A stretch of 64,000 nucleotides of DNA from an uncultured Acidimicrobiales bacterium. GTDB taxonomy: Bacteria; Actinomycetota; Acidimicrobiia; Acidimicrobiales; SZUA-35. The stretch covers positions 37,569 to 101,568 of the forward strand of contig CALKTH010000059.1 of the NCBI GenBank assembly GCA_937997485.1. The letters run 5' to 3'. The notes beneath the pieces are model-generated. The model was not told where the DNA came from. It made no database searches and saw only the letters and a program-made list of their open reading frames with translations. The position numbers were made by a program, and so were the translations under genes. The first letter of the stretch is position 1; each line of letters opens with the position of its first letter. Positions 6,273 through 44,036 of this stretch are shown in pieces.

Positions 6273-7661
6273 TCAGCCAGCCGTGAGTCGGTGAATCATG
6301 GCGTCGAATTCCTCGGGCGTAGACGGCCGGGCCACCAAGTGACCTTGGGCGAGGGGAACGTTCATCGAGCGGAGGTGGGTGACCTGTGATTCGCTCTCAA
6401 CGCCCTGGGCCGTGATCTCCAGACCCATCGTGTGGGCCAACTCGACCATCAAGCGAACGGTGTTCGTCGCCTGTTCGCTCGAGCCCAACTGAGCCACGAG
6501 CCGGCGGTCGAGCTTGATCGAGTCGTAGGGCTGCTCGTGCGCGGCGGCGAAGTTCGAGTAGCCGACACCGAAGTCACCGATCGCGACACGGGCGCCGCGC
6601 GAAGCAAGCGCACGGAGCACTCCAGCCGACGCACGATCGTCAGCATCGGGGCTCGGGCTTACCTCGAGACCCAGCGTGATCCGCTCATCGCGGCGCATCA
6701 CCCCCAAGAAGCGACCGGCGAAGTCAGGGTGCAGAATCTCGGCTGGGCCGACGTTGATCCAGAGCGTGATGCCGCTGAGAACGCCCTCATCCGTCAACCG
6801 AGCTGCTGCGACGTGCGCCCGTTCGAGCACCTGGAGCGAGATCTCGTGGATAACCCCGAGTGCTTCCGCTGCCAGGATGAGATCTGGCGCCGGAACCGGG
6901 CCCCGCTCACCTCGACTCCATCGGGCGAAGGCCTCGATGGCGACGATTTTGCCGGTCGTGATGTCAACCGCCGGCTGCATGGCGCACCCGATGGCCTGGT
7001 TGACCACGGCGAGACGCAGCTCGGACTCCAGTTCCCGTTGCCGCTCGCTCCGCACGCGCTGATACGGGTGGAAGAGGACACCGCGACGGGAATCGTCGGA
7101 CTCGGCGAGAGCAAGCTCGGCCGCTTCGAGCAGGTGGTCAGCCGTCGGATTCTCATGGTCCAAGAGCACCCCGCCCAACCGGGCACTCATCGCGTGGGGT
7201 AGCTGGTCAATCGAAAGTGATTCCTTCAAGCCCTCAAGCAGGCCGTCCATGATGGCTTCACCATCAGCTCGACGACGAAGAGACGGAACGAAGCCGATGA
7301 ACTCTTCGGGATTGGCGACGACCCCGACGAAGCCGGGAGCGACAGCCGTGAGGCGCTCGCAAATGACGTTCGGCAGCTGAGAACGGCTGGAACTGTTCGA
7401 TGTGTTCGCAACGGCGACTGACGGCAGAGGGCGATGTCGCACTCGAACAACAAGAACAGAGTGCTCCTGCTCGGTTGCGATCTCGACGGCCTTCTGAAGC
7501 TCATGAACGAACTGATCATGGTGGCGAGGGGTCAACGGAGTGGACCCCGGCTCGCCGTGAACTGGCAGTCCGGCACGCAAACGACGCATGCCGCCCACCG
7601 CGGCAACGGGGGTCGGGGCGGAGGTCGTTTCGGCTGACGAAGTTGGAGGGAGGGGGGACAT
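6273..7661 (-). CDS. Degenerate GGDEF - degenerate EAL domain protein (likely non-catalytic c-di-GMP-related protein)
   Basis: EAL-domain pattern (EAFARW, LWINVGP, IKLDRRL, AQGHLVARP) but DDFGTG is GDFGVG and EGVE is QGVE. The GGDEF position reads NPEEF. Start is uncertain (ATG at 7661, 7748 or 7589). The long ORF to 7937 would overlap cvnA. Confidence 0.7.
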   Translation of the reverse strand: MSPLPPTSSAETTSAPTPVAAVGGMRRLRAGLPVHGEPGSTPLTPRHHDQFVHELQKAVEIATEQEHSVLVVRVRHRPLPSVAVANTSNSSSRSQLPNVICERLTAVAPGFVGVVANPEEFIGFVPSLRRRADGEAIMDGLLEGLKESLSIDQLPHAMSARLGGVLLDHENPTADHLLEAAELALAESDDSRRGVLFHPYQRVRSERQRELESELRLAVVNQAIGCAMQPAVDITTGKIVAIEAFARWSRGERGPVPAPDLILAAEALGVIHEISLQVLERAHVAAARLTDEGVLSGITLWINVGPAEILHPDFAGRFLGVMRRDERITLGLEVSPSPDADDRASAGVLRALASRGARVAIGDFGVGYSNFAAAHEQPYDSIKLDRRLVAQLGSSEQATNTVRLMVELAHTMGLEITAQGVESESQVTHLRSMNVPLAQGHLVARPSTPEEFDAMIHRLTAG

Positions 7662-7887
7662 AGCGGCTCTTCTCAGAACAGAGGAACGGCCGGACAGCCG
7701 GCCAGGCAGACGAGAGAAACTGTCGACGCCTACTGGCTCCATCGGCATCCCAACCCAGCCATTGAGCAGCGCCGTGCACGCAGTAGGTGGATCTTCCCGT
7801 TTGGGCAACTGACACAGATCTGAAGTCAGATTTTGCTCAACTCTGGACAGATCCCGTCGATCCACTTGGGAGAAGCCCAACTTTCCG

Positions 7888-10527
7888 ATGGGAGCCAGCG
7901 TGAACATTCGCGGCAAGCTTTTGACCTTGATCCTCATTCCTCTGCTCGGCGTGCTCGGCGCGTCCGTGTGGGGTTTCCGCTCTCAGTCCGTCGTGACTGA
8001 GGTGGCAGAGGATGCCGTGACCGCGGTCCAGACAACCAGCAAGGTGCACCAGGCCATCCTTGCCATGGGCGACGAGCGGGCGGCGCTGGCGCCAACGGCC
8101 GACCGGGCGCTCCTTCCCGATCTGCAGGCGGCAACTGACGCCGCCTTCGCCGAAGTCTTCACCCGTGACCTGAGTCCCGAGATGACGGCCATGATGACCG
8201 ACATGCAGGCGCTGGTCACGGAAGCCCGCACCCGTGTCGCCAGCGGAGACCTCGCCGCCTATGCCGAGCCGTTCTCCACCGCCATTGAGACGCTGCTCAA
8301 TGCTGGCGGCGGCGGCGAGAGCTACTTCACCGCCGAGCAGGCCCAGGTGGCCAACGCCGCTCATCAGTCCTTCGAAATGATTGAAGCTCGCGAGGCAGCC
8401 TGGCTGCAGTACCTCCTGCTGGACCCGGCGAGCCCGTCCGACGTGCTGAATGTCTCGGTTGCCCTCGGCGAAGCCGAAGTGCTGACCGAGGAGGCCTACG
8501 AGTTCGTGCAAACACAGGTCGAACCCACCATGAGTGAGGCCCAGGACTCTGTTGCCGAGCGCCGCCTGAATGAGCTGGCCTTCCTCGCCACGACGCAGCT
8601 CGCAGCTGGCGAAGGCTCCATCCCCGCTGATCAGGTTGTCTCCACGCTTTCCGAGAGTCGAGCCGAGTGGCGAAATGCGCTGGGTTCCGCCGACCAGTTC
8701 CTCCTCGACAAGGTCACCTGGGAGCTGGATCGTGCCAACGGCATTCGCTCGCTGTTCACGCTGCTCGGCCTCGGTGGCCTGGTCGTACTCGGCGGCCTGG
8801 TCTTCGTTATCTACCGATCCATCACCCTTCCACTTGGCTCGCTGCTGAACCGGGCCCAGACCGTGGCCGACGACGAGCTGCCCGAACTGATTCGTGTGCT
8901 GCGTCACAGTGACTCGGTCGCCGAACTTCCGAGCCCGTCGGTGATCCCCGTCGAGTCCGATGACGAAATTGGCCAGCTCGTGTCGGCCTTCAATGACGTG
9001 CAGGTTGCTGCGTACGACCTGGCAACCGAACAGGCACTCGGTCGACGCAACGTCGGCGACATGTTCATCAACCTCGGTCGCCGAAACCAGCAGCTGCTGC
9101 AGCGCATTCTCAACCAGCTCACCGAGCTGGAGCGAGAAGAAGAGAACCCCGAGACGCTCGACACGCTCTTCGCTCTCGACAACATCGTCACCCGAATGCG
9201 GCGTAACGCTGAATCACTGCTGGTGCTCGCCGGCGGCCAGACGCCTCGTCAGTGGAGCAACCCAGTCACCCTCGAAGACACCGTGCGCTCGGCGCTCTCC
9301 GAGGTCGAGAACTACCAGCGAGTCGACATCGCCGCCCTCGCCGAAGTCCACCTCCCCGGCAACATGGTTGCCGACGTGGCTCACATGCTCGCTGAGCTCA
9401 TCGAGAACGCCGTCAACTTCTCGGACCCGAACTCTCAGGTTCTCGTGGGCGGCCACTTCGAGAACGAGAACTACGTCGTCACGATCTTCGACCAGGGCAT
9501 CGGCATGTCCGAGGACGAGCTCGAGACCAACAACCGTCGAATCAGCGATCCGCCTCCTCTCGACCAGGCACCGACCCGCTTCCTCGGGCTGTTCGTGGTT
9601 GGCCGTCTCGCCGACCGCCACGAAATCCTCGTCCGCCTGGCCAAGGCTCCCGGCCGTGGCCTCATGGCCCGTGTGCAGATTCCGGCGCAGCACCTCCTCC
9701 TCGACGGCCACAATGCCATCGACGGTGGGGACACCCAGAGTCTCACCGCTGCGGGCGACTTCCTCGACGACGAACTGGCAGAACTGTCGAACTCGTACGC
9801 CGATCCCATCAATGAGGACCTGAGCCTCGGCGATGTCGACATCGAGAGCGAAGCCGGCGAATTCGATCTTCCCAATCTCGACCACGACGGCTCTGTCTTC
9901 GAGGAGAGCACCACTCCTCCCGTCGAGGTGCAGCGCTTCGAGGTCTCGAACCCAACCACTCCCGACAAGGTTCTCCCAGACCTTCCCGTTCGTGGTGGTG
10001 GACTCCTCAAGGTCCCCCAGCCCGACGAACCGGTTGCTCCCGAGGCGGCTCCGATCGACCCGGTTCCGGTGGCCGAGCCCGAGCCAGCACGCGCCGTTGC
10101 GCCCGTGAACCCACCGCCAGCCCCGGCTGCGCCGACTCCCGTCGCGGCGGCAACGCCCGAGTCGTTGTTCCCCAGCGATACCCCCACCACTCCCCTACCG
10201 GTCCGAAACGCCGGCCAGGCACTCGACCAATCACCAGCACCCGTCGCTAGTGCGCCAGCCACACCCGCAGCTCAGGCTCCAGCGCCGGCCCGCGCCCCAG
10301 CCCCCGGCCTACCGGACAACTTGCCGTTGCGAGTGCGGGGTGCTGCCCTCGACACCTCGGCTCCGGTCACGCCCGAATCACGGGCTGCCGACAAGCCAGC
10401 GCCAGCAGAAGACAACGGTGACAAGGCTGGCAATTTCTCCTCGATGATGTCTGCGTTCTCCACCGGTGTTCGGCGGGGAATCGAAGACAACGCTTTTGAA
10501 TCACTTGATGAAGGGCTCGACCAATGA
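7888..10527 (+). CDS. cvnA: Conservon sensor-kinase-like protein CvnA (TM, sensing region, HAMP, HATPase_c, Pro/Ala-rich tail)
   Basis: The architecture is followed directly by roadblock/LC7, DUF742 and GTPase genes. ATPase-box-like stretches are present (ELIENAVNFS, DQGIGM, GLFVVGRLA). Confidence 0.8.
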   Translation: MGASVNIRGKLLTLILIPLLGVLGASVWGFRSQSVVTEVAEDAVTAVQTTSKVHQAILAMGDERAALAPTADRALLPDLQAATDAAFAEVFTRDLSPEMTAMMTDMQALVTEARTRVASGDLAAYAEPFSTAIETLLNAGGGGESYFTAEQAQVANAAHQSFEMIEAREAAWLQYLLLDPASPSDVLNVSVALGEAEVLTEEAYEFVQTQVEPTMSEAQDSVAERRLNELAFLATTQLAAGEGSIPADQVVSTLSESRAEWRNALGSADQFLLDKVTWELDRANGIRSLFTLLGLGGLVVLGGLVFVIYRSITLPLGSLLNRAQTVADDELPELIRVLRHSDSVAELPSPSVIPVESDDEIGQLVSAFNDVQVAAYDLATEQALGRRNVGDMFINLGRRNQQLLQRILNQLTELEREEENPETLDTLFALDNIVTRMRRNAESLLVLAGGQTPRQWSNPVTLEDTVRSALSEVENYQRVDIAALAEVHLPGNMVADVAHMLAELIENAVNFSDPNSQVLVGGHFENENYVVTIFDQGIGMSEDELETNNRRISDPPPLDQAPTRFLGLFVVGRLADRHEILVRLAKAPGRGLMARVQIPAQHLLLDGHNAIDGGDTQSLTAAGDFLDDELAELSNSYADPINEDLSLGDVDIESEAGEFDLPNLDHDGSVFEESTTPPVEVQRFEVSNPTTPDKVLPDLPVRGGGLLKVPQPDEPVAPEAAPIDPVPVAEPEPARAVAPVNPPPAPAAPTPVAAATPESLFPSDTPTTPLPVRNAGQALDQSPAPVASAPATPAAQAPAPARAPAPGLPDNLPLRVRGAALDTSAPVTPESRAADKPAPAEDNGDKAGNFSSMMSAFSTGVRRGIEDNAFESLDEGLDQ

Positions 10528-10940
10528 CCCGTACCGATACTGAGCAGTTCTCCTGGCTCGTCAACAACTTCGTGACCGAGACCCCGGGCGTCGAAGACGC
10601 CATTGCGGTCTCAGCTGACGGAATCAAGTTGGCGGCCTCGGCAGGACTTCCGAGAGCGACCGCCGATCAATTCGGGGCGATCACCTCCGGACTGTCCTCG
10701 CTGACGCTCGGCGCCGCTCGCTGCTTTGCCGAAGATGCGGTGCATCGCGTCGTCATCGAGATGGACCGCCACTACCTGTTGATCGTCAACATCAACCACG
10801 GTTCGATTCTCGGTGTGGTGGCAACGAAGGAGTCCGACATCGGGGCCGTGGCCTACGAGATGACGATCTTCGCCGAGCGCGCCAGCCGTGTGCTCACGCC
10901 CGAACTCATCACCTCGCTCAAGAACACCCTGAGCATCTGA
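10524..10940 (+). CDS. cvnB: Roadblock/LC7 domain protein CvnB
   Basis: FSWLVNNFVTETPGVEDAIAVSADGIKLA... is typical of roadblock/LC7. There is a 4-nt overlap with cvnA. Confidence 0.85.
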   Translation: MTRTDTEQFSWLVNNFVTETPGVEDAIAVSADGIKLAASAGLPRATADQFGAITSGLSSLTLGAARCFAEDAVHRVVIEMDRHYLLIVNINHGSILGVVATKESDIGAVAYEMTIFAERASRVLTPELITSLKNTLSI

Positions 10941-10947
10941 GGCTGTC

Positions 10948-11313
10948 ATGTCACCGCTGGACGACGAGCCCATGATCGAGCAGGAGACGGACTTCGTGCG
11001 CCCCTACCTGGTCACGGGTGGGCGGACGAAGAGCAAAGTTGACGGTCTGAAGCTCGAGACCTTGGTGCAGGCGACAAACAAGCCCACCTCCAACCTTCGC
11101 TTCGAAGCTGCCAAGGTGGCAGCACAGTGTTCAACCGCGACCTCGATCGCCGAGGTCTCGGCTCATCTATCGGTGCCATTCGGCGCCGCCAAAGTCATCG
11201 TTGGCGATCTCATCGCTAGCGGTCACTTGCAAGCGCACCGTACGCTCGAGGGAAATGCCCCCGACGACGTGCAACTGATCACGCGCCTCATTTCGGGCGT
11301 GAGGAGGCTCTAA
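10948..11313 (+). CDS. cvnC: DUF742 protein CvnC
   Basis: The VRPYLVTGGRT motif and ~120 aa size match DUF742. It sits at the third position of the conservon. Confidence 0.8.
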   Translation: MSPLDDEPMIEQETDFVRPYLVTGGRTKSKVDGLKLETLVQATNKPTSNLRFEAAKVAAQCSTATSIAEVSAHLSVPFGAAKVIVGDLIASGHLQAHRTLEGNAPDDVQLITRLISGVRRL

Positions 11314-11951
11314 TGTCTGACGCCAATCCCGTTTCCGCCAAATTCGTCGTTGCCGGTGGCTTCGGCGTGGGCAAGACCACGTTCGTCGGCACCGTCTCCG
11401 AAATCGACCCGTTGCGGACCGAGGCCTCGATGACCTCGGCATCAATCGGAATCGACGACACCTCCAAGGTCTCGTCCAAGACCACCACCACGGTGGCCAT
11501 GGACTTCGGCCGCATCACGATCGACAACGACCTCGTGCTGTACCTGTTCGGAACGCCAGGCCAAGACCGGTTCGGCTTCATGTGGGACGACCTGATCGCT
11601 GGCGCTCTCGGTGCCGTGGTTCTCATCGACTCACGCCGCCTCGCCGACAGCTTCTATGCCATCGACTATTTCGAGAGCAAGGGCATCCCGTTCGTGGCCG
11701 CTGTGAACGCGTTCGATGGTGTCATTGCCCACGAGCTCGACATGGTTCGCACGGCGTTGCAACTCGACCCCAAGGCCAAGCTGATGGCGTGCGACGCACG
11801 CGATCGACACTCGGTGAAGGAAGTCCTCCTGACGCTGTTCGAGGTGATCCTCGACCGTCTCACGGCCGAAGCTGCAGGCTCGGCTCCCGCCGCTTCGGCT
11901 GCGCCACCGGCGACCACACCACCGCCGGTCGCTCCTGCCATCCAGGGCTGA
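11313..11951 (+). CDS. cvnD: Small Ras-like GTP-binding protein CvnD
   Basis: P-loop GGFGVGKTT, DTPGQ-like FGTPGQDRF, and start/stop overlap with cvnC. Confidence 0.85.
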   Translation: MSDANPVSAKFVVAGGFGVGKTTFVGTVSEIDPLRTEASMTSASIGIDDTSKVSSKTTTTVAMDFGRITIDNDLVLYLFGTPGQDRFGFMWDDLIAGALGAVVLIDSRRLADSFYAIDYFESKGIPFVAAVNAFDGVIAHELDMVRTALQLDPKAKLMACDARDRHSVKEVLLTLFEVILDRLTAEAAGSAPAASAAPPATTPPPVAPAIQG

Positions 11952-12132: not shown

Positions 12133-14121
12133 TCAGTAGGCGACGGGTTCCGCGTCCATGGCCACATTGAGCGCAGCCACGTCAAGGGGTCGGTGGAAGA
12201 GGAACCCCTGGACCCGGCGGCAGCCGAGGCGTTCCACCACGCTCGCCTGCTCAGGCTCTTCAACGCCCTCAACGATCACGCCCAGGTTCAATGCCCGGCA
12301 CAGCCCCACCACCGCCTCTACGACGCTGCAAGCCACGGGATCGTGGCTGATGCGGGCGACGAAGGAACGATCGATCTTCACGATGTCGATTGGCAGTTCC
12401 TGCAAGTAGGACAGTGATGAGTATCCCGTACCGAAATCGTCGATCGCGATGCGCACACCACTCGACCGAAGAGCCTCGAGGACGGGAATCGTGGCGTCGA
12501 GATCGTTGACAATGGCCGACTCGGTCAGCTCGAGAATGAAGTGTTCGGCCGGCAACCCGGCCTGCTTCAGCGCTCCCCGCACCGTGTTCACGAAGGCGGG
12601 GGAAGCGATCTGGCCAGAGGTGGCGTTCACCGACAGCGTCAGGTCCGGATGTCGGCGACGCAGCTCGGCGGCTTGACGAGTCGCGATGAACAACACGCGG
12701 TCGCCGATTTCATCGACCAAGCCGGCTTCCTGGGCAATGTCCAGGAAGGCCCCGGGCATGTGCAATTGACCGTGCTCGTCTCGCCAACGGACGAGTGCTT
12801 CGATGCCTTTGACCTTCGCCGAGGGCACCTCGACGATGGGCTGGTAATGCACTTCGAACCGATCATCGGCGAGCGCAGAAACGAGGCCGGCCTCGACATT
12901 GAAACGTCGCTCGAGCTTGGCCTGAAGCTCGCCGTCGTGGACGACATAGCCGCCGCGATTCCGTTCCTTGGCGTAGTACGCCGCCGTGTCGGCTTCACCC
13001 AGCAGAAACTCTGCTTGCTCCCGCCCTGGGCGGCGGGCCATGGCCACACCAACGCTCATGGCAATCCGGACCGAGCGGCCCGAGATGGTGAACGGCTCAT
13101 CGACCACACTCAGGATCGCCTCAGCGGTTTCAACCGCCCGGGGCTGATCGGCATTGCCAAGCATGACAACGAACTCGTCACCGCCAAGGCGCGCCACGAT
13201 CGCATCGTCGTCATCTCGGCGAGTGACCACGGCATCAGCGAGTCGGGCCGCGAAGACACGAAGCAGCTCATCGCCGGCAGCGTGGCCGAGCGAGTCATTG
13301 ACGACCTTGAAGCGATCAAGGTCGCAGAACAGCACCGCAGGCATCCGACCAAGGTCTAGCTCTCGGCGGAGCTGGCGGATGAGCCGGGCGCGGTTGGCCA
13401 GCCCGGTCAGAGTGTCGCTGAAGGCGAGGCGACGGAGCTCTCCCGTCATTCGCCGCTCTTCGGTGATGTCTCGGCCGACGCCGAAGACAAAGCCGGTGGT
13501 GTCATCGCGTTCCAACGACCAATGAATCTCTCGGCTGCCGAGATCCTCGCGCGTCGACAGCACACCCTCTGCCTTCTGGCGCCCGACGATGCGACCGCGG
13601 AGATTGGAACCGTCGTCAGCGGCGTCAGGCTGGAAGAGGTCCCAGAAGTTCTCGTCGATCACCTCGGCGTCAGCGATCCCGCTGATCGCTCGCCAAGCGT
13701 CGTTGCCTTCCACGATCCGCCCCGCCTCGTTCATCACCTGAAAGAGCACACCCTCCGCGGCGAAAAACTGGCGGAGGAGATGGTCGCGAATGTCGTTGGT
13801 CTCCTCACTGACCGAGTCGGCCAGAAGCCCGACCGAGGGAGCGATCAGTTGGTAGTCACCGGCGACGCCGAGCGTCTTGTTCGTCCAATCCATGGGCGCC
13901 GGAGTCCCGACGTCGATCTGGGCCCGGAGCGCCGCGGCGTTGGCCTCGACCACGATGCCGTCCTGGGTCGCCAAGGTCGCAGGGGTCGGCAGAGCGTGCA
14001 ACAACACGCTCCACAGCTCCACAGAAAACGATCGAGCAACCTCGGACACTCCAGTACTGTCGGTGCTCAACGAGGGTGTCTTGAGGAAGTGAGGCCCCTT
14101 GACCTGGGTGATATCGCCCAC
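12133..14121 (-). CDS. PAS - GGDEF - EAL protein (both catalytic motifs intact)
   Basis: RLGGDEFVVML, EALVRW, IAIDDFGTGYSS and VIVEGVE motifs are all present. Confidence 0.9.
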   Translation of the reverse strand: MGDITQVKGPHFLKTPSLSTDSTGVSEVARSFSVELWSVLLHALPTPATLATQDGIVVEANAAALRAQIDVGTPAPMDWTNKTLGVAGDYQLIAPSVGLLADSVSEETNDIRDHLLRQFFAAEGVLFQVMNEAGRIVEGNDAWRAISGIADAEVIDENFWDLFQPDAADDGSNLRGRIVGRQKAEGVLSTREDLGSREIHWSLERDDTTGFVFGVGRDITEERRMTGELRRLAFSDTLTGLANRARLIRQLRRELDLGRMPAVLFCDLDRFKVVNDSLGHAAGDELLRVFAARLADAVVTRRDDDDAIVARLGGDEFVVMLGNADQPRAVETAEAILSVVDEPFTISGRSVRIAMSVGVAMARRPGREQAEFLLGEADTAAYYAKERNRGGYVVHDGELQAKLERRFNVEAGLVSALADDRFEVHYQPIVEVPSAKVKGIEALVRWRDEHGQLHMPGAFLDIAQEAGLVDEIGDRVLFIATRQAAELRRRHPDLTLSVNATSGQIASPAFVNTVRGALKQAGLPAEHFILELTESAIVNDLDATIPVLEALRSSGVRIAIDDFGTGYSSLSYLQELPIDIVKIDRSFVARISHDPVACSVVEAVVGLCRALNLGVIVEGVEEPEQASVVERLGCRRVQGFLFHRPLDVAALNVAMDAEPVAY

Positions 14122-15091: not shown

Positions 15092-15103
15092 CGCCGATCG
15101 GCG

Positions 15104-15553
15104 TCAGCCGACGAAGGAAAAGACCAGTTCGCCGAGTTCGCCATCGAGCGTGAGTTGACGCTCCCCTGCGTCCGACGCGCCAGCGTCGATGCTGGCGTTG
15201 TTGGCGGTGATGAGCGTCTGCACGAACGCTCCAGCAGAGATGTCGAGAAGTGGGCTGCACTGTTGGCCACCAACCTCCACGTCAGCGACCGTGAAGTCGG
15301 CGGCCGTGGATGAAACCAGCCCGTTGATCTCGTTGCAGTAGACCTCGCCGGTCAATGTCCCGCCGTCGAACCGCAGCACGATCACTCCATCTTCCACCGG
15401 TTGCACCGCTCCCCCGGTGTGTCGCCAGGCGCCGGCGAGTTCAGCGGACGTCGGACCGTCTTCGGCACCGAGGTCAGACGCACAGCTGGCGGCCGCAAGA
15501 GCGGCCGCCAGCAGGCAAAGGATGATGCGCACGGGGCGAGCGGCGAAGCTCAA
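15104..15553 (-). CDS. Lipoprotein, META(HslJ)-like domain
   Basis: The signal peptide has a lipobox (LAAASC). GTLTGEVYCNEING resembles META domains. There is a 4-nt overlap with the upstream redoxin gene. Confidence 0.5.
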   Translation of the reverse strand: MSFAARPVRIILCLLAAALAAASCASDLGAEDGPTSAELAGAWRHTGGAVQPVEDGVIVLRFDGGTLTGEVYCNEINGLVSSTAADFTVADVEVGGQQCSPLLDISAGAFVQTLITANNASIDAGASDAGERQLTLDGELGELVFSFVG

Positions 15554-16143
15554 GCGGCGATCAGCTGATCGATGCGCTCGCTGAGACCGTCGGCTCCCAG
15601 CGCTCCGGTCCGATCGACGATGCTGCCATCGTCGTCGATGAAGATGAAGAAGGGTTGGCCTCGCACATCGAGCGCGGTCCAGATGTCGCCGGCTTCGTCG
15701 AACACGTGCGTAAACCCGCTGACACCTCGGGTGTCGATGAATTGCTGCATGGCTCCGGGGTCATCACGACCCGCCATGCCGATGATCGTGACATCATCAC
15801 CGTATTGCTCCTGTGCTGCGGCGACCGAACTGGCCTCCCGTTGACAGGTCGGTCACCACGGTGCCCAGAACCAGAGCACGATGTCATCGCCACGGTGGGC
15901 TTCGAGATCGAAGGCCGCGCCGTCTGAAGTCGTTCCGACAAAAGCGGGGAATGGATCGGCAGCGTCACCGGAGTCGGTCGAGTCGTTGGCCGCAGCGGGG
16001 GCTGCAGCCGTTGTCTCGGCGTTGTCGCCACCAGACCCACAGGCCGAGATCAGCAGCGCAAGGGCTGCCGCCAAGGCAATGAGGGTGCGTCGAGGTGTTT
16101 CCACAAGCGGCAACCGTAGGCGATTGTCCGGACGATGCATCAT
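15550..16143 (-). CDS. TlpA/ResA-like thioredoxin-fold lipoprotein with in-frame TGA (15853..15855) at the first position of the CxxC motif; candidate selenoprotein (UPTC)
   Basis: Track ORFs 15853..16404 and 15550..15777 are in the same frame, and this TGA is the only stop between them. Read-through gives ...DIVLWFWAPW-U-PTCQREASSVAAAQEQYGDDVTIIGMAGRDDPGAMQQFID...QPFFIFIDDDGSIV.... The N-terminus has a lipobox (LLISAC). Start is uncertain (ATG at 16143 or 16140, or GTG at 16104). Confidence 0.65.
15821..15851 (-). promoter_or_regulatory. SECIS-like hairpin downstream of the redoxin TGA
   Basis: The mRNA reads UGA-CCGACCUGUCAACGGGAGG-CCAGUUCGGUCGC. A GGCC/GGUC stem (extendable with G16-C32 and G15-C33) is capped by an AGUUC loop. 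The same 13-mer occurs at the same offset in the GrdB-like gene. Confidence 0.55.
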
Positions 16144-16216
16144 CAGGCTGCGCTTGTTCAGAACTTCTTCAGTTGGCCGCTCGCACCGCCGCGCTCGAGC
16201 GGCTAGAGATGCCATC

Positions 16217-17365
16217 ATGACCCAGTCTGCACTCCCTGCTGTTGCCATCACCGGAACGGGCCTCATGACCCCGTCTGAGTCGATCACCAATGCCGAACTG
16301 GTGACGTCGCTGACCGCGGCAACCGAGCGATGGAACCTCGAGCACGCCGATGCCATCGCGGCAGGCGACGTCGAAGCGCGCTCAGCGCCAGACGAGACCT
16401 TCATCTACAAGGCATCAGGCATCTCGTCTCGGTACGTCCTTGACAAGGCGGGCGTTCTCGACCCCGACCGGCTCAAGCCGCGCCTCGAGCTGCGCTCCGA
16501 AGATCAGCTGAGCATCCAGGCCGAGATGGCCCTCCCCGCGATCGAACAAGCGCTCGCACAGGCCGGACGCAGCGGCTCCGATGTCGATGCCGTCATCATG
16601 GGTTGCTCGAACGTCCAGCGGGCCTACCCAGCCGTGTCCATCGAGATACAAGACGCGCTCGGTGCTGCGGGTTGGGCCTATGACATGAACGTCGCCTGCT
16701 CCTCCGCCACGTTCTCGATTCAGGCCGGTGTCGATGCCCTTCGCAACGGATCGGCCAGCTGCGTGGTCGTCGTGAATCCAGAGATCACGTCGGCGCACAA
16801 CAACTTCGAGCTCCGAGACTTCCACTTCATCTTCGGCGATGCCTTCACAGCGCTCGTCTTGGAGCGCGAGGCCGACGCCTTGCCGGCAACCGCCGACACC
16901 CGGTGGACCGTGCTTGGCACAAGCCTTGCCACGCAGTTCTCGAACAACATCCGCAACGACGCTGGCTTCATCAACCGAGCAGAGGACGGCGAGCGGGATC
17001 CGCACGAGTTGATCTTCCGGCAGAACGGCAATCGAGTGTTCAAGGAGGTCTGTCCAATGGTGGCCACACACATCAAAGATCACTTGGAGCGAGCCGAGCT
17101 TCCCACCGACGACGTTCGCCGCTTCTGGCTACACCAGGCGAACCTGAAGATGAACCAGCTGATCGCCAAAGGTGTTCTCGGCCGAGTGCCAGAGGAGGAC
17201 GAGGCCCCCGTCACGCTCGATGAATACGCGAACACGAGCTCGGCGGGGTCGATCATCGCCTTCCACAAACACCGCGACGATCTCTCTGCCGGTGACCTCG
17301 GGGTGATCTGCTCCTTCGGTGCCGGCTACTCGGTGGGCAGCATCCTCGTCCGCAAGGCGGGATGA
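16217..17365 (+). CDS. Beta-ketoacyl-ACP synthase III-like (KAS III / thiolase-fold) enzyme
   Basis: The active-site context is NVACSSATFSIQAGVDALRNG. The C-terminus GAGYSVGSILVRK is typical of FabH-like proteins. I placed the start at the ATG at 16217. Confidence 0.75.
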   Translation: MTQSALPAVAITGTGLMTPSESITNAELVTSLTAATERWNLEHADAIAAGDVEARSAPDETFIYKASGISSRYVLDKAGVLDPDRLKPRLELRSEDQLSIQAEMALPAIEQALAQAGRSGSDVDAVIMGCSNVQRAYPAVSIEIQDALGAAGWAYDMNVACSSATFSIQAGVDALRNGSASCVVVVNPEITSAHNNFELRDFHFIFGDAFTALVLEREADALPATADTRWTVLGTSLATQFSNNIRNDAGFINRAEDGERDPHELIFRQNGNRVFKEVCPMVATHIKDHLERAELPTDDVRRFWLHQANLKMNQLIAKGVLGRVPEEDEAPVTLDEYANTSSAGSIIAFHKHRDDLSAGDLGVICSFGAGYSVGSILVRKAG

Positions 17366-19637: not shown

Positions 19638-20003
19638 TCAGGCGGTGGCACCGGCCTCAACCTGGGCCCGGACCTCGTCCATGTCGAGGGCCCGTACCTG
19701 AGTGATGAGGTCTTCGAGCGCGTCGGCCGGAAGGGCGCCCGGCTCGGAGAAGAGCTGGATGCCGTCACGGAAGATCATGAGCGTGGGAATGGAGCGAATG
19801 TTCAAGCTCCCAGCCAGCTGCTGCTGATCTTCAGTGTCGATCTTGGCGAAGACGATGTCCTCATGCTTGTCGGCCGCGGCCTCGAAGATGGGTGCGAACG
19901 AGCGACAGGGACCGCACCAGGCGGCCCAGAAATCCAGGAAGACGATGCCGTCTTGGCTGATGGTGTCCTCGAACTTCTCGATGGTCAGATTGATAGTGCT
20001 CAC
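19638..20003 (-). CDS. trxA: Thioredoxin
   Basis: FWAAWCGPCRSFAPIFE motif, 121 aa. Confidence 0.9.
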   Translation of the reverse strand: MSTINLTIEKFEDTISQDGIVFLDFWAAWCGPCRSFAPIFEAAADKHEDIVFAKIDTEDQQQLAGSLNIRSIPTLMIFRDGIQLFSEPGALPADALEDLITQVRALDMDEVRAQVEAGATA

Positions 20004-23220: not shown

Positions 23221-24564
23221 ATGCTCTGGGCACTTCCAGAAATCGTCCTTCCCCTCATCATTGCGTTTCTGATCGGCTTGCTGATCGGTTGGCTGTGGTG
23301 GGGCTGGCGCCGCACCAAGATCTCCTACACGGAGTGGGAGACCATGCGCCAAAAGTCCAACCGTGCATCCTCGGTCGACACCGATGCCGAGCTTCAGGGC
23401 CTGCGCTCCGATCTCGACTCGCATCAGAGTGACCTCGATGCGCTTCGAGCAGAGCGAGACGAGCTCCAGGCCTCCCTCGATGAATGCAACCGCCGCCACG
23501 AGGCAGGTGCTGACGCGGGCAGCCCGGATGGAGACAGCGAAGCTGGTCTTGGTGGAGGTGTGCTTGCGGGAGCCGCCGCTGCAGGGGCGGCCGGTGCCGC
23601 TGACGGTGATGGCGGCGATCATGAGGTGCAGGGTCTCGTCGCCACCACCGATGGTGACGCGGAGGCTGATGCGGACGGAGATGGCGCAAGCCGAGCCGTG
23701 GTCGGCGGTGTGGTGCATCCCTATGGCGATGGATCACACGCTCCGTGGGAAGACGACAAGCGGGAGCAGCCCGAGGGCTACCCGATCAAGGGCAACGTCG
23801 ACTCCATGCTCTACCACCGGCCCGACAGCCGGAACTACGGCGCCACCGGCGCTGAAGTCTGGTTCGACACCGCCGACTCCGCCGAGACCGCTGGCTTCGC
23901 CCTCTCGCCCACGCATCCCAAGAGCGATGCCGACGATGCAGGACCGGCCGCAGATGCCGTCGACACCGAGGCGGGCGCTGATGCCGGTCTCCGGGCGGTC
24001 ACTGGCAAGCGGCACCCGTACGGCGCCGGTTCGCACGCACCGTTCGCTGAGGCGAAGCGAGATCAGCCAGACGGCTACCCGATCAAGGGCAACGTCGACT
24101 CCATGCTCTACCACCGGCCAGACAGCCGGAACTACGGCGCCACCGGCGCTGAAGTCTGGTTCGACACCCCCGACTCCGCCGAGACCGCTGGCTTCTCGTT
24201 GTCACCGAGCCACCCCTCGACGGACCTTCCAGACGGCATGACGTTCGCCGCTGCCCCGACCCCGAGCGCCCAGGCCCTCGCCGACGACGGCACGAACGAC
24301 ACGCCAGAGGGTGCCGATTCGGCCGACAGCGACGAGTTCGCTGGCGAACAGCACCCCTACGGCGAGGGCTCGCATGCTCCGTACGCCAACGAGCCGCGCC
24401 GGATGCCAGAGGGCTACACGATCAAGGGCAACGTGGACTCGATGCTCTACCACCGTGAAGACTCTCGGAACTACGGGGCGACCATCGCCGAGGTGTGGTT
24501 CGACACGGCCGAGCGGGCAGAGGCAGCAGGCTTCGCCCTCTCGCCGACCCATCCCAAGAGCTGA
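23221..24564 (+). CDS. Membrane-anchored protein: N-terminal TM helix, coiled-coil, three copies of a ~70-aa HPYGxGSHAP...[24 protein letters not shown].AEVWFDT...AE.AGF module
   Basis: I placed the start at the ATG at 23221 ([29 protein letters not shown]). The three repeats are read directly from the translation. The module resembles the short IKGN...YH.P...Y...WF.T..EA..AGF domain seen at termini of other bacterial proteins; I am not certain of its name. Confidence 0.7.
23716..24561 (+). repeat. Three intragenic repeats (starts 23716, 24013, 24352); cores 23776..23898 and 24073..24195 differ at 2 of 123 nt
   Basis: Direct nucleotide comparison of the two cores. The third copy is clearly more diverged. 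Confidence 0.9.
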
Positions 24565-26954: not shown

Positions 26955-27016
26955 GGTCGAAGATCCAGGGCTAGACGACCTATTCCGATCTAGCCAAATC
27001 CTGCCGATATGGAAAC

Positions 27017-29305
27017 ATGGCGACATCGTTCCAGACGTGGCAGCGCGCACTCGACGCGCAGCTTGCGAGCGGACCCGACGATGACCCCGACGGTGTTGTC
27101 GCGCTCGTTGATGGCGACTTCGTCCTGCAGGCTGTCTCGGATCAAGCGCCAGCGATCTTCGGCCTCGACGCCGACGATGTCATCGGCGCCAGCGCGCTCG
27201 AGCTGATTCACCCCGCCGACCTCGAGCGAGCGCTGATGGCGTTTGGCGAAGTCACCACCCGCGCCGGTCTTCGACCTCCCGACGTCTACCGAATTCGGCA
27301 AGGCGACGGCAGCTACATCGCCTTCGACGTCAGCGGCGAGTCCCTGGTCGATCCAAGCGAATTGATCGAGCCCGGCACCACGGACGAAGGCAGCGTGCGA
27401 CAGGCGGTCGTGTTCCGTCTCTCAGGGCTCACGGAGCGGCGACGAGCGGAGATGCTCGCGGTCGAGCAAGTCGAGATCCTGGAGCGGCTGGCCGCCGGTC
27501 AGAGCCCGGCTGAGTCGCTGCTGGATCTTGCGAACATGAGTGACCGCAACATCGATGGATCGATTTGTGTGATCTACGGCATCAACGATGCCGGTCAGCT
27601 CGTACCCCGGACGGCGAGCGCACTGCCGTCATCGATCCTCCATCGTGCTCACGCTGAGGATGCCCACGACCCACCAGACAGTCTTGGTGAGGCTTTGGAC
27701 CGCCGCCTGAGCGTGATCGAGATGGACATCAACACAGCCACGGGGCCTTCCCACTGGGAGAGCGTTCGGCCGTGCCTGAACGAACTTCGTATTGCGAGCT
27801 GCATCACGACACCGGCGTTCCGCAGCGACGGAACGCTCGTCGGATTCCTTGAGGTGTTTCGCTCCTCCGACCGCCGTCCTTCCAACGCAGAGATGTCGGT
27901 GCACACGCTCATCGGGCGCCTGATGGGCTTGATCGCAGACCGCCACGCCTTTGAGCGGGACCTCTCTCATGCCGCCCTCAGCGACCCGTTGACGGGGTTG
28001 GGGAATCGACGCCGTATGCACCTCGAACTCGAGGAACTGACGGCCTCTGGTACGCCGTTCGGTCTGCTCGGCATTGACGTCGATCAGTTCTCGTGGATCA
28101 ACAACAACCTGGGTCATGCCGCTGGCGACGAGCTCCTCATCGAGGTTGGGCGCCGAATCCTCTCCGGTGCTGTCTCGACCAACATCACCGCGTCGGTGTT
28201 CCGTAACGGCGGAGACGAGTTCGTTGTGGTCCTGCCAGGCGAACGCCGAAGCGAAGCGCTCCTCGAGACGGCTCAGGCGATTCTCCAGCACATGGAGCCG
28301 GCTGTCGCCGTGGCAGCAACAGAGCGGCGAGTGAATCTCTCCATCGGCGTTGCCCGCTCGGACGAGGACGCTGATCCAGCGAGGGTCTTGGCTCGCGCCG
28401 ACGCCGCAATGTACGCCACGAAGCGAGACGGCGGTGCGGGCGTTCGCTTGTTCTCCGAGCCAATCGGCAGAGAGATGATGCGTCGTATGTCGCTGGCCGA
28501 CGAGCTCAGCGCAGCAGTCGAGAACAACGAACTGCGACTCGTCTTTCAACCGATCTTTGATCTCCATACCCAGAAGATCACCGGCGTCGAGTCACTCGTC
28601 CGGTGGGAGCACCCTCGCCTCGGTCTGCTCGGGCCCGGTGAGTTCATCCCCATCGCCGAGGAATCGAACGCCATTCTCGACATCGATCATTGGGTGTTGC
28701 GCAACGCCCATCGTCAACTTGAACGCTGGGCAAACCGCCAGGAGGCGGATCGCGACTTCGAGGTGTGGGTCAACCTCTCCGCCCGTTCCTTCGTTCGCAC
28801 GGACCTCCCGGGAATCATCGACTCGTTCCCTTCGCTTCCCCGTACCAAACGCTTGGGGCTGGAACTCACCGAGCGAGACGAGATCGAAGACATCGACGCC
28901 GCTCGTGCTGCCTTCGCCGAGCTCCGAAGAACCGATGTTGGCCTGGCCATCGACGACTTCGGCACGGGACGAGCAAGTCTCGCGGTCCTGGCCGAACTCG
29001 ACGTGACCGCCGTGAAGATCGACCGCACGTTCGTGAGCAAGGTTCTCACCAACGAGCGCTACCGAAGCTTGACCGAAATGATCGTGCGGTTGGCCTCGGA
29101 CTTTGGCCTTTCCGTCACCGCCGAGGGCATCGAGGACGAAGAAACCATCGCCCATCTCCGGGCACTGGGCTGCGGGCGGGGACAGGGATTTCTCCTGTCG
29201 CGACCGATGGTGCCTGCCGACTTTGACAAGCGCTTTGGCCCCGATCTCGGTCGCGTGTGGACCTCGGGTCCCTCGGCTGGATTCAGCGGCGGGCGAAACG
29301 GCTGA
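27017..29305 (+). CDS. PAS/GAF-like sensor - GGDEF - EAL protein (motifs intact)
   Basis: RNGGDEFVVVL, ESLVRW, LAIDDFGTGRAS and VTAEGIE motifs are present. Confidence 0.9.
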   Translation: MATSFQTWQRALDAQLASGPDDDPDGVVALVDGDFVLQAVSDQAPAIFGLDADDVIGASALELIHPADLERALMAFGEVTTRAGLRPPDVYRIRQGDGSYIAFDVSGESLVDPSELIEPGTTDEGSVRQAVVFRLSGLTERRRAEMLAVEQVEILERLAAGQSPAESLLDLANMSDRNIDGSICVIYGINDAGQLVPRTASALPSSILHRAHAEDAHDPPDSLGEALDRRLSVIEMDINTATGPSHWESVRPCLNELRIASCITTPAFRSDGTLVGFLEVFRSSDRRPSNAEMSVHTLIGRLMGLIADRHAFERDLSHAALSDPLTGLGNRRRMHLELEELTASGTPFGLLGIDVDQFSWINNNLGHAAGDELLIEVGRRILSGAVSTNITASVFRNGGDEFVVVLPGERRSEALLETAQAILQHMEPAVAVAATERRVNLSIGVARSDEDADPARVLARADAAMYATKRDGGAGVRLFSEPIGREMMRRMSLADELSAAVENNELRLVFQPIFDLHTQKITGVESLVRWEHPRLGLLGPGEFIPIAEESNAILDIDHWVLRNAHRQLERWANRQEADRDFEVWVNLSARSFVRTDLPGIIDSFPSLPRTKRLGLELTERDEIEDIDAARAAFAELRRTDVGLAIDDFGTGRASLAVLAELDVTAVKIDRTFVSKVLTNERYRSLTEMIVRLASDFGLSVTAEGIEDEETIAHLRALGCGRGQGFLLSRPMVPADFDKRFGPDLGRVWTSGPSAGFSGGRNG

Positions 29306-31980: not shown

Positions 31981-32067
31981 GCGGACGTGGCGGAATTGGC
32001 AGACGCGCTGGGTTTAGGTCCCAGTGTTCGAAAGAACGTGAGGGTTCAAGTCCCTCCGTCCGCACCA
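31981..32067 (+). tRNA. tRNA-Leu (anticodon UAG), class II with long variable arm, CCA encoded
   Basis: Acceptor GCGGACG/CGTCCGC. Anticodon arm CTGGG-TTTAGGT-CCCAG. T arm GAGGG-TTCAAGT-CCCTC. Ends ACCA. Confidence 0.9.
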
Positions 32068-37648: not shown

Positions 37649-37713
37649 GGGCTGACAGCACAGCCGGGCGAAAGGCCTCCGGTGCTGTGCCCTCCCCTCG
37701 CTACCCTCTGCCC

Positions 37714-38175: not shown

Positions 38176-38286
38176 GCTCTCATTCCCCTCGGAAACCTGC
38201 GCCTCGGCGCCTGACTCCGAAGGGACCGCTATTTGACAGAAGAGACATCAGCATTGCACGCAAGTGCATGACATCTCTTCGACCTC

Positions 38287-42542: not shown

Positions 42543-42588
42543 TCGGTCAGTGTGCCCCACGCAACACGTTTGAGAAAGCAACGCTCTC

Positions 42589-43950: not shown

Positions 43951-44036
43951 CGCTGCGTCACCACCCGCACAGTGTGCCGGACGGAAATCATTCGCTCAAT
44001 GCACCATTCAGGTGAACCGCCGGTCAAGCTCTCTGG

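What the first reader, a model, noticed from the sequence alone, without database searches (positions are those of the whole stretch)
15550..16143. Exported TlpA/ResA-like thiol-disulfide oxidoreductase with TGA in place of the first CxxC cysteine (candidate selenocysteine lipoprotein, motif W-U-P-T-C)
The track shows two same-frame minus-strand ORFs, 15853..16404 and 15550..15777. A single TGA at 15853..15855 is the only stop between them. Reading through gives an uninterrupted thioredoxin-fold sequence: FDLEAHRGDDIVLWFWAPW-[TGA]-PTCQREASSV...IIGMAG...QPFFIFIDDDGSIV. In TlpA/ResA/redoxin proteins this position is the nucleophilic Cys of WCxxC. Cys-to-Sec replacement at exactly that residue is the classic signature of bacterial thioredoxin-fold selenoproteins. 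The N-terminus carries a lipoprotein signal (ALALLISAC), so this would be an extracytoplasmic selenoprotein, which is uncommon. The gene overlaps a downstream META-like lipoprotein gene by 4 nt, which suggests an operon. A SECIS-like hairpin follows the TGA (see the separate finding).
Basis: partly seen in the sequence, partly recalled or inferred. Interest (0 to 1): 0.85.

Follow-up and report, generated by a model that had tools for sequence, protein, structure and literature searches.

The report
Selenocysteine lipoprotein of DsbE/TlpA type
This gene most likely encodes an exported thiol-disulfide oxidoreductase that has selenocysteine (read from an in-frame TGA) in place of its catalytic cysteine; it is a real but unannotated member of a selenoprotein family first predicted in 2005, so it is a solid find rather than a new kind of thing.

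Summary
On the minus strand, one TGA (15853-15855) interrupts an otherwise intact 197-codon TlpA/DsbE-like lipoprotein gene, at the first Cys of WCxxC.

It is not an assembly error. The TGA is present in every independent assembly of this population that covers the site, across two haplotypes. Both SNPs downstream of it are synonymous.

It is not an isolated nonsense mutation. About 118 of those hits are full-length homologous lipoproteins with TGA at the same codon and about 100 intact codons after it.

Most carry a covarying hairpin with an invariant GGUC tetraloop, the same loop sequence as in the E. coli fdhF SECIS. The window belongs to a six-member subclass with a different hairpin, GGCC[AGUUC]GGUC at +21..+33. 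This hairpin meets the published bacterial SECIS criteria and is frozen at synonymous sites.

A Sargasso Sea sequence published in 2005 as 'thiol-disulfide isomerase-like' selenoprotein has the same LLWFWAPWU motif. The closest solved structures are M. tuberculosis DsbF and DsbE.

The host is an uncultured Acidimicrobiia bacterium. Its selA/B/C/D genes could not be checked.

Verdict: genuine selenoprotein gene (about 0.85), new member of a known kind.

The parts
15550..16143 (-). Full read-through coding sequence of the selenoprotein (197 codons including Sec). Alternative starts are ATG 16140 and GTG 16104.
   Evidence: sequence and translation; Redoxin/AhpC-TSA/Thioredoxin; DsbF 3ios 1.2e-25, DsbE/MPT53 1lu4 1.4e-23; end-to-end alignment with 14 Cys homologues.
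16039..16143 (-). Lipoprotein signal peptide ending in the lipobox I-S-A-C. The lipidated Cys35 codon is 16041..16039.
   Evidence: sequence; Cys35 is invariant in alignment A2; essentially all TGA-containing homologues carry a hydrophobic stretch plus lipobox.
15853..15855 (-). In-frame TGA, the proposed selenocysteine codon (residue 97).
   Evidence: Present in every assembly that covers the site. Aligned to the first Cys of CxxC in all homologues. TGA sits at the same codon in about 118 metagenomic homologues.
15844..15855 (-). Redox motif U-P-T-C. The equivalent motif in M. tuberculosis DsbF is C-P-T-C.
   Evidence: UxxC dipeptides vary across the family: PT 22, ST 20, GT 13, GA 8 and others.
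15819..15840 (-). Candidate SECIS hairpin at +16..+37 from the U of UGA: CGG..GGCC[AGUUC]GGUC.CCG. The apical loop is 15831..15827, with G26-U27.
   Evidence: -8.7 kcal/mol; the same fold appears in all six subclass members. (synonymous sites of codons +6, +7, +10 and +11 are invariant in 5 lineages at 43-71% protein identity, against 7 of 31 elsewhere). (meets the published bSECIS constraints).
15553..15852 (-). Post-TGA part of the thioredoxin fold (100 codons), intact and conserved.
   Evidence: invariant G122, F135, D149, G152, W155, Q163, G173, G180 and L194 are all retained. (both SNPs here are synonymous). (homology search with this part alone).
15104..15553 (-). Downstream META-domain lipoprotein gene, probably co-transcribed. 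Its start is either TTG 15553 or GTG 15532. It is not a conserved partner in the family.
   Evidence: PF03724, 1.2e-5; called as 142 aa from 15532; no neighbour cluster shared with the window apart from one of antisense shadow ORFs.

Best explanation
The gene encodes a selenocysteine-containing, membrane-anchored extracytoplasmic thiol-disulfide oxidoreductase of the actinobacterial DsbE/DsbF (MPT53) branch of the TlpA-like thioredoxin-fold family. The host is an uncultured Acidimicrobiia bacterium.

Inferred mechanism of translation: the ribosome reaches UGA at 15855..15853. A small hairpin 16-37 nt downstream, with loop AGUUC, would recruit SelB carrying Sec-tRNA(Sec), so that Sec is inserted instead of termination. 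The full 197-residue preprotein would then be exported, lipidated on Cys35 and anchored on the outer face of the membrane.

Inferred function: the U97-P-T-C100 pair cycles between a selenolate/thiol state and a selenenylsulfide state, to oxidise, reduce or shuffle disulfides in envelope proteins. The M. tuberculosis homologues DsbE and DsbF assist oxidative folding in vitro.

Shown here: the gene anatomy, the homology, the reproducibility of the TGA, recurrence of TGA at this codon in about 118 diverged homologues with intact ORFs, and RNA-level selection on the downstream hairpin. Inferred only: actual Sec insertion in this organism, the direction of redox chemistry, and the substrates.
For: (1) The TGA aligns with the catalytic Cys of DsbF and DsbE and of 14 of 14 aligned homologues.

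(2) It is not an error. The TGA is present in all four aligned sequences (the window plus three assemblies), which span two haplotypes, and in the other two assemblies that cover the site, L012 and L013. The three SNPs across the aligned 691 nt are one substitution in the signal-peptide n-region and two synonymous changes downstream of the TGA.

(3) All family-invariant residues downstream of the TGA are retained.

(4) About 35 of the best 150 cluster representatives are 66-100-aa fragments that begin just after the Cys position. One of them, checked at the DNA level, reads ILWFWAPW-TGA-SRC.

About 118 are full TlpA-like lipoproteins with TGA at the same codon and about 100 intact codons after it.

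(6) There is family-wide RNA constraint. Third-position information is 1.48 and 1.77 bits at codons +9 and +10, against 0.1-0.6 at other conserved four-fold codons. For the hairpin 22-29/34-41 with the GGUC loop, 75% of cells pair, against 31-50% in slid controls. It has 76 double-sided changes against 31 in shuffles (0 of 500 shuffles reach this). All 3 Cys forms I could read lack GGUC.

(7) The window's subclass (window, L031, L050, L063, L065, L105) shares GAGGCC-RGUWC-GGUCGCC. Its synonymous sites are frozen (4 of 4 against 7 of 31; my hypergeometric estimate is p of about 0.006). The only variable bases are loop positions 1 and 4.

(8) That hairpin meets the published bSECIS constraints: a 5-nt loop, a 4-bp upper stem, G then U at loop positions 2-3, 21 nt between UGA and the loop, and -8.7 kcal/mol.

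(9) The same family was published as a selenoprotein (BLASTP 2e-22 with Sec positions aligned).

(10) The host is Acidimicrobiia. An order of that class is reported to carry selA/B/C/D universally.

(11) TGA is the normal stop codon in this window, so a genome-wide reassignment of the codon is not the explanation.
Against: No tRNA-Sec, selA, selB or selD was found in the 64-kb window, in about 9 kb of flank, or in any related locus. Only a small part of the genome was reachable, so this says little either way.

The hairpin's stability is not better than shuffles or synonymous recodings.

No Rfam SECIS model matches, although bacterial SECIS elements are poorly modelled there.

The window lacks the family's majority hairpin (3 of 8 pairs). 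Its own variant is invariant across the subclass, so it has no covariation support.

No other selenoprotein candidate lies in the window.

The nearest TGA-containing relatives are only about 50% identical, so shared ancestry of the Sec state with the subclass is plausible but not proven.
Confidence: 0.85

Rival explanations
1. Relic selenoprotein gene or plain nonsense pseudogene. The lineage has lost, or never had, the Sec machinery, so translation stops at W96. That would yield a non-functional 96-residue lipoprotein stub, and the downstream 100 codons would be decaying.
For: No sel genes or tRNA-Sec were found in the reachable sequence. A single base change turns TGC or TGT into TGA, and TGA is this genome's common stop codon. 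Hairpin stability is not significant.
Against: The downstream half keeps every family-invariant residue. Both downstream SNPs are synonymous. The TGA predates the split of two haplotypes. The exact position recurs in about 118 diverged homologues. The subclass-specific hairpin is intact and identical to that of 5 other lineages at synonymous sites.
Confidence: 0.09
2. Sec-independent read-through, or a split gene. Either UGA-C is suppressed at low level by a near-cognate tRNA (Trp or Cys), or the two halves are made as separate polypeptides, with the 75-aa ORF starting at ATG 15777.
For: UGA followed by C is a weak termination context in E. coli; this comes from my own recollection and was not tested here. 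An ATG-initiated 75-aa ORF does exist.
Against: Inserting Trp would destroy the redox centre. The 75-aa ORF lacks a signal peptide and the first half of the thioredoxin fold, so it could be neither exported nor folded. Neither idea explains the conserved, covarying hairpin placed 20-40 nt after the TGA across the family, or the strict restriction of TGA to the catalytic Cys codon.
Confidence: 0.04
3. Sequencing or assembly error at a TGC/TGT codon.
For: None beyond the prior possibility.
Against: The TGA is identical in the window and in every separate assembly that covers the site, drawn from three sequencing runs and two co-assemblies and including two SNP haplotypes.
Confidence: 0.01

Closest known systems
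'Thiol-disulfide isomerase-like protein' prokaryotic selenoprotein family (Zhang, Fomenko and Gladyshev 2005, Sargasso Sea, PMC1088965; listed in the 2026 review PMC13188914 as cd02966, UxxC)
   Same: The published member AACY01523057 reads ...REVLLWFWAPWuGGCNREAAAVAAL.... It has the same W-F-W-A-P-W-U-x-x-C-x-x-E motif and the same fold. BLASTP against the window protein gives 2e-22 with 38% identity, and the Sec positions align.
   Different: The published set was four short, heterogeneous environmental fragments; another listed member reads DWuTWC. In the text I read it had no signal-peptide, taxon or SECIS-class description. The window gene is a full-length lipoprotein from an Acidimicrobiia MAG. 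It is only about 38-52% identical to other members and carries a minority SECIS architecture.
Mycobacterium tuberculosis DsbF (Rv1677, PDB 3ios) and DsbE/MPT53 (Rv2878c, PDB 1lu4)
   Same: These are the best solved-structure matches (1.2e-25 and 1.4e-23). The active-site stretch VLWFWAPW-C-PTCQ-EA is nearly identical to DsbF. Both are exported thioredoxin-fold proteins of Actinomycetota. They aid oxidative folding in vitro (PMC3853704 abstract).
   Different: The mycobacterial proteins use Cys, whereas here the first Cys is encoded by TGA. Overall identity is only about 40%. Redox direction and partners are untested for the window protein.
E. coli fdhF SECIS element
   Same: It is a small hairpin in the coding sequence just after UGA. 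The family's majority hairpin has the same GGUC tetraloop as fdhF (UGCA[GGUC]UGCA). The window's loop, AGUUC, keeps G-U at loop positions 2-3.
   Different: The loop lies at +22..25 in fdhF, at +30..33 in the family majority, and at +25..29 in the window. In the window the GGUC tetranucleotide forms the 3' arm of the stem rather than the loop. SelB binding was not tested.
ResA / CcmG(DsbE) / TlpA cytochrome-c-maturation reductases and the 'WAxxUGC' ResA-like selenoprotein (NCBIfam NF041054)
   Same: They share the TlpA-like thioredoxin fold and the extracytoplasmic location.
   Different: All NCBIfam scores are far below the curated cut-offs: ResA 55.8 against 170, DsbE 37 against 123, TlpA 29.6 against 230, WAxxUGC_long 26.4 against 300. 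No cytochrome c biogenesis genes (CcdA, ResB/C) were noted among the called genes around the locus.

Membership tests
Bacterial selenoprotein gene (Sec-UGA decoding) | In-frame TGA aligned with a conserved (redox) Cys in homologues | tested here: met
   aligned to the first Cys of CxxC in DsbF, DsbE and 14 of 14 aligned homologues.
Bacterial selenoprotein gene (Sec-UGA decoding) | TGA-containing homologues in other organisms, with the ORF conserved beyond the TGA | tested here: met
   about 118 homologues, 105 unique, each with about 100 intact downstream codons; about 35 of 150 cluster representatives are post-Cys fragments.
Bacterial selenoprotein gene (Sec-UGA decoding) | bSECIS hairpin: 3-9 nt loop, at least 4 bp upper stem, G in the first two loop positions, 16-37 nt from UGA to the loop, MFE of -7.5 kcal/mol or lower (criteria from PMC13188914) | tested here: met
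   GGCC[AGUUC]GGUC with outer CGG/CCG, -8.7 kcal/mol. The loop starts 21 nt after UGA, with G at loop position 2 followed by U. Synonymous-site freezing in the subclass supports it. Stability alone is not significant.
Bacterial selenoprotein gene (Sec-UGA decoding) | selA, selB, selC (tRNA-Sec) and selD in the same genome | tested here: inconclusive
   None found in the window, about 9 kb of flank, or 818 kb of held loci. Only about 73 kb of this genome was reachable. The class Acidimicrobiia contains Sec-using lineages.
Bacterial selenoprotein gene (Sec-UGA decoding) | Selenium actually incorporated at the UGA | not testable with these tools
   Needs 75Se labelling or mass spectrometry.
'Thiol-disulfide isomerase-like' selenoprotein family (cd02966 TlpA-like, UxxC) | UxxC motif in a TlpA-like thioredoxin-fold domain | tested here: met
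   (Redoxin 1.2e-17, AhpC-TSA 1.7e-15). The CDD model cd02966 itself could not be run.
'Thiol-disulfide isomerase-like' selenoprotein family (cd02966 TlpA-like, UxxC) | Sequence similarity to a published member, with Sec positions aligned | tested here: met
   AACY01523057, LLWFWAPWuGGCNREA; BLASTP 2e-22, 38% identity over 98 residues.
Actinobacterial DsbE/DsbF (MPT53) exported oxidoreductases | Significant sequence homology over the whole thioredoxin domain, and the WFW-x-PW-C-P-x-C active-site stretch | tested here: met
   residues 67-194 align to DsbF residues 21-147. The motif is identical except that U replaces the first Cys.
Actinobacterial DsbE/DsbF (MPT53) exported oxidoreductases | Export signal (secreted or lipoprotein) | tested here: met
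   hydrophobic stretch plus lipobox ISAC. No dedicated signal-peptide predictor was available.
Actinobacterial DsbE/DsbF (MPT53) exported oxidoreductases | Disulfide oxidase or folding activity | not testable with these tools
   Known for the Mtb proteins only (PMC3853704).
ResA / CcmG-DsbE / TlpA / WAxxUGC NCBIfam families | Score at or above the curated NCBIfam cut-off | tested here: not met
   NF002854 55.8 against 170; TIGR00385 37.2 against 123; NF047696 29.6 against 230; NF041054 26.4 against 300.

The most novel reading that the evidence does not exclude
The window's SECIS may be a functional, register-shifted variant of the family element. The ancestral GGUC tetraloop at +30..33 would have been recruited as the 3' arm of a new hairpin, which presents a different loop (R-G-U-W-C at +25..29). 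That would make three interchangeable SECIS architectures within one orthologous gene family.

If so, the family would be a natural series for learning what actinobacterial SelB really recognises. It would also show that this exported Sec-lipoprotein clade is far larger and more widespread than the four fragments reported in 2005: at least 120 hits to one narrow motif, from marine and other metagenomes.
Probability: 0.35. Interest if true: 0.5.

Novelty: new member of a known kind. Interest (0 to 1): 0.35.

Why it matters
Public gene calls split this gene into two meaningless ORFs of 95/96 and 75 aa with no Pfam hit. The same happens in dozens of related clusters. Recognising it restores a full-length envelope redox enzyme and marks the host Acidimicrobiia lineage as a probable selenium user.

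The family is the selenium-using counterpart of M. tuberculosis DsbE/DsbF. That makes it a natural Sec/Cys pair for asking what selenium buys an extracytoplasmic disulfide enzyme. The three SECIS architectures in one gene family, with a GGUC loop identical to that of E. coli fdhF in the majority, are useful training material for bacterial SECIS models, which Rfam currently lacks. None of this overturns current knowledge.

Tried and rejected
- Rfam, both at gathering thresholds and in a permissive E-value scan of 15700-15950, gave no SECIS family, only noise hits.
- Hairpin significance was tested by dinucleotide shuffles and by 1000 synonymous recodings. It was not significant, so stability was dropped as evidence.
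- The read-through protein was used as an exact-peptide query on genome contigs and metagenome contigs. No close relative turned up, only a 36%-identical Limnocylindria gene.
- The word-indexed protein search returned only full-length Cys forms and missed the short fragments. The exhaustive representative search was needed to see them.
- The synteny of the closest Cys homologues P0001 and P0003 differs (acyl-CoA dehydrogenase and a K+ transporter as neighbours), so they are not positional orthologues.
- Neighbour-gene clustering around the 118 homologues was dominated by shadow ORFs in these high-GC contigs. No conserved partner such as CcdA or a META protein emerged, so the approach was abandoned.
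- Searches for tRNA-Sec (ARAGORN) and for SelA/SelB/SelD (tblastn with the E. coli proteins) in the window, flanks and all loci found nothing.
- A scan of the window for other TGA-split coding regions found no further selenoprotein candidate.
- The Cys-form control for the hairpin rests on only three usable sequences. All lack GGUC. The viral-contig scan added only chance matches.
- An 11-bp stem that includes the UGA itself (GUGGUGACCGA/UCGGUCGCCGC) was considered as the functional structure. I judged it less likely, because the ribosome would have to melt it on reaching the UGA, and it is only partly preserved in the subclass (5-8 bp by my own inspection of the sequences).
Full report
**Observation.** On the minus strand, an ORF runs from ATG 16143 (alternatives: ATG 16140, GTG 16104) to TGA 15552..15550. 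It is interrupted once, by TGA at 15855..15853. Read-through gives 197 codons with the motif DDIVLWFWAPW-[TGA]-PTCQRE. With Cys substituted at the TGA, the product matches Pfam Redoxin (1.2e-17), AhpC-TSA (1.7e-15) and Thioredoxin. The downstream gene is a META-domain protein. The claimed 4-nt overlap depends on using its TTG at 15553. Public gene calls use GTG 15532 instead.

**What the protein is.** The best solved-structure matches are M. tuberculosis DsbF (3ios, 1.2e-25) and DsbE/MPT53 (1lu4, 1.4e-23). The DsbF active-site stretch VLWFWAPWCPTCQGEAP is almost identical to the window's, and the TGA falls on the first Cys of CPTC. In an alignment with 14 homologues (37-48% identical), that position is Cys in all of them. 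The lipobox Cys35 is invariant. Every invariant residue downstream of the TGA (G122, F135, D149, G152, W155, Q163, G173, G180, L194) is retained. No NCBIfam model reaches its cut-off, including ResA, DsbE/CcmG, TlpA and the WAxxUGC selenoprotein. The protein is therefore an exported lipoprotein of the actinobacterial DsbE/DsbF branch of the TlpA-like fold. SecA places the host among uncultured Acidimicrobiales/Acidimicrobiia, with the best hit at 74% identity.

**Not an error, and not visibly decaying.** The same population was assembled independently from several runs (ERZ6864208, ERZ6864144, ERR9287621-23). In each assembly that covers the site the gene is split into a 95/96-aa and a 75-aa ORF. 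An alignment of the window with three of these assemblies shows the TGA in all four sequences. It also shows three SNPs that define two haplotypes: a Thr/Arg change in the signal-peptide n-region and two changes downstream of the TGA, both synonymous in the read-through frame. The other two assemblies that cover the site also carry the TGA. TGA is the usual stop codon of this genome, so a genome-wide reassignment is not the explanation.

**Recurrence of TGA at this codon.**
- Exact-peptide scans of reference genomes and metagenomes found no close relative, and the word-indexed protein search returned only Cys forms.
- An exhaustive HMMER search with the 100 post-TGA residues was different. About 35 of the best 150 cluster representatives are 66-100-aa proteins that start with M, V or L immediately after the Cys position, for example MTCRGEAP..., MSCVQE... 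and MDCVRE....
- The locus of one of them reads ...ILWFWAPW-TGA-SRCRREAP..., with a lipoprotein signal upstream and an intact domain downstream.
- About 118 of these encode full TlpA-like proteins with TGA at this codon and about 100 intact codons after it. There are 105 unique downstream sequences, 29-52% identical to the window protein.
- Essentially all have a lipobox. The two residues between U and C vary widely: PT, ST, GT, GA, TS and others.

Independent pseudogenes would not share one stop position across this much divergence while keeping the rest of the ORF intact.

**The RNA element in the family.** In 71 of 103 unique sequences, the 20 nt at +22..+41 from the U of UGA form GCC.CUGC[GGUC]GCAG.GGY.
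- The GGUC tetranucleotide at +30..33 is present in 96 of 105 sequences.
- Third-codon-position information peaks there, at 1.48 and 1.77 bits for codons +9 and +10. Other equally conserved four-fold codons give 0.1-0.6 bits.
- On an ungapped alignment of 101 sequences, the hairpin pairs in 75% of cells, against 31-50% when the partners are slid.
- It shows 76 double-sided changes, against 31 in shuffles (0 of 500 shuffles reach this). Its covariation score is 0.296, against 0.157 or less for slid versions.
- The stem switches among CUGC/GCAG, CGGC/GCCG, CCUC/GAGG and GGUGC/GCAUC as the encoded residues change.
- The E. coli fdhF SECIS, read directly from K-12, is UGCA[GGUC]UGCA with the loop at +22..25.
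- The three Cys-form genes I could read have CGUC or UGUG at that position and no such stem.
- A second class (16 sequences, plus about 10 similar ones) has CCGGG[AGGCN]CCCGG at +15..29 instead.

**The window's own element.** The window cannot form the majority hairpin; only 3 of its 8 pairs are possible. It belongs to a third class of six lineages (window, L031, L050, L063, L065, L105; residues E-A-[S/G]-[S/T]-V-A). In this class GGUC is the 3' arm of GGCC[RGUWC]GGUC at +21..33, flanked by CGG/CCG.
- All six sequences fold the same way. The window's fold has an energy of -8.7 kcal/mol, and fdhF's core has -5.7 by the same method.
- Among the five full-length members (43-71% protein identity), the synonymous positions of codons +6, +7, +10 and +11 are invariant. 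Only 7 of 31 comparable codons elsewhere are invariant. My hypergeometric estimate is p of about 0.006.
- The Ser/Gly and Ser/Thr replacements at codons +8 and +9 change only nucleotides 25 and 28. These are loop positions 1 and 4, so the stem and the G26-U27 dinucleotide are untouched.
- In L031, a G34-to-U change converts the A20/G34 mismatch into a pair.
- The element meets the four published bSECIS constraints: loop of 3-9 nt, stem of at least 4 bp, G in the first two loop positions followed by G or U, 16-37 nt spacing (here 21), and MFE of -7.5 kcal/mol or lower.

Taken alone, its stability is not better than dinucleotide shuffles or synonymous recodings, and Rfam has no matching model. 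The support comes from comparative conservation, not from thermodynamics.

**What could not be shown.** No tRNA-Sec, selA, selB or selD lies in the window, in the roughly 9 kb of flank I could fetch, or in the related loci. No other TGA-split gene is evident in the window. Less than about 75 kb of the genome was reachable, so this is uninformative rather than negative. A 2026 preprint reports selA/B/C/D in all 84 complete genomes of Actinomarinales, an order of the same class.

**Comparison with what is known.** The supplementary file of the 2005 Sargasso Sea selenoproteome paper lists AACY01523057 as 'Thiol-disulfide isomerase-like', with the sequence ...REVLLWFWAPWuGGCNREAAAVAAL.... BLASTP against the window protein gives 2e-22 with the Sec positions aligned. 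The family appears in a 2026 review table as cd02966, UxxC. The kind is therefore known, and exported thioredoxin-fold selenoproteins (DsbA-like, DsbG-like, thiol:disulfide interchange protein) are listed there too. This analysis adds four things:
- the link to M. tuberculosis DsbE/DsbF, which aid oxidative folding in vitro;
- the near-universal lipoprotein signal;
- the size of the clade;
- the three SECIS architectures, including the fdhF-like GGUC loop.

**Mechanism (inferred).** SelB carrying Sec-tRNA(Sec) would be recruited by the +16..+37 hairpin while the ribosome pauses on UGA. The full-length preprotein would then be exported and lipidated on Cys35. At the outer face of the membrane, the U97-P-T-C100 centre would cycle through a selenenylsulfide. 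Whether it acts as oxidase, isomerase or reductase, and on which substrates, is unknown. No CcdA or cytochrome c biogenesis partner was noted nearby, and the META-domain neighbour is not conserved in the family.

**Verdict.** I put the probability of a genuine Sec-encoding gene at about 0.85. The main residual alternative is a relic gene in a lineage without the Sec machinery (about 0.09). It is a new member of a known kind, of moderate interest.

Noticed in passing
L019-L138 (metagenomic homologues); window 15819..15840: One orthologous selenoprotein family carries three different hairpin architectures after the UGA. Class A has a GGUC tetraloop at +30..33 (71 sequences). Class B is CCGGG[AGGCN]CCCGG at +15..29 (16, plus about 10 similar). 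Class C is GGCC[RGUWC]GGUC (6, including the window). GGUC itself stays nearly invariant in all three, even where it is not in a loop.
   Followed up: partly
window 15821..15866 (minus strand): An 11-bp stem, GUGGUGACCGA/UCGGUCGCCGC, pairs the UGA codon itself with the GGUC-containing segment (-30.4 kcal/mol for the 81-nt context). It competes with the SECIS-like hairpin. By my own inspection, part of it (GGUGA/UCGCC) is possible in most family members, because both arms are conserved. I could not tell whether it has any role.
   Followed up: partly
window 23221..24564 (+): A protein with three tandem copies of a roughly 70-90-aa repeat (HPYG-GSHAP...[27 protein letters not shown]...AGF-LSP-HP). 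It is annotated with Pfam ArfC (PF27542) in the public gene call and follows an OmpA-domain protein.
   Followed up: no
window 7888..11951 (+): A four-gene cluster of 'conservon' type: a HAMP/HATPase sensor kinase (879 aa), Roadblock/LC7, DUF742, and a small ATP/GTP-binding protein (PF03029). My recollection, not checked here, is that this arrangement is typical of Actinomycetota.
   Followed up: no
window 37645..38671 (+): smpB is immediately followed by the tmRNA gene (tag peptide ANKADFALAA). A tRNA-Leu lies at 31981..32067. No other tRNA gene was found in the 64 kb.
   Followed up: no
window 19638..20003 (-): An ordinary cytoplasmic-type thioredoxin with a Cys-Cys active site (FWAAWCGPC) lies 3.6 kb from the Sec-containing redoxin. 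The genome therefore uses both Cys and (putative) Sec thioredoxin-fold proteins.
   Followed up: no
window 54077..58249 (+): A 1391-codon open frame with no stop lies antisense to secA and prfB (secA is 936 aa on the minus strand). It is a shadow ORF typical of high-GC DNA. Similar long antisense frames cover the redoxin locus itself (15092..15927 on the + strand), so ORF length is no evidence of a gene here.
   Followed up: partly
window 6273..7982 (-), 12133..14121 (-), 26975..29305 (+): The 64-kb window holds three proteins that look like c-di-GMP signalling proteins. The one at 12133..14121 has GGDEF and EAL Pfam hits plus faint PAS hits in the public gene call. The other two were judged from their translated sequence only: 26975..29305 shows both GGDEF-like and EAL-like motifs, while 6273..7982 shows mainly an EAL-like C-terminal half. 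The window also holds two paralogous sensor kinase genes next to a response regulator (40336..43995).
   Followed up: no
L018 260..1620: In one diverged homologue, the Sec-redoxin gene sits directly downstream of an ArsR-type HTH regulator (PF01022) and a Polyketide_cyc2/AHSA1 protein on the same strand. This context differs from the window's, and no neighbour conserved across the family was found.
   Followed up: partly
window 16102 (population SNP; alignment A1 column 134): One of the two population haplotypes changes Thr16 to Arg in the n-region of the signal peptide (ACA to AGA), adding a positive charge. It is the only non-synonymous difference in the gene.
   Followed up: no
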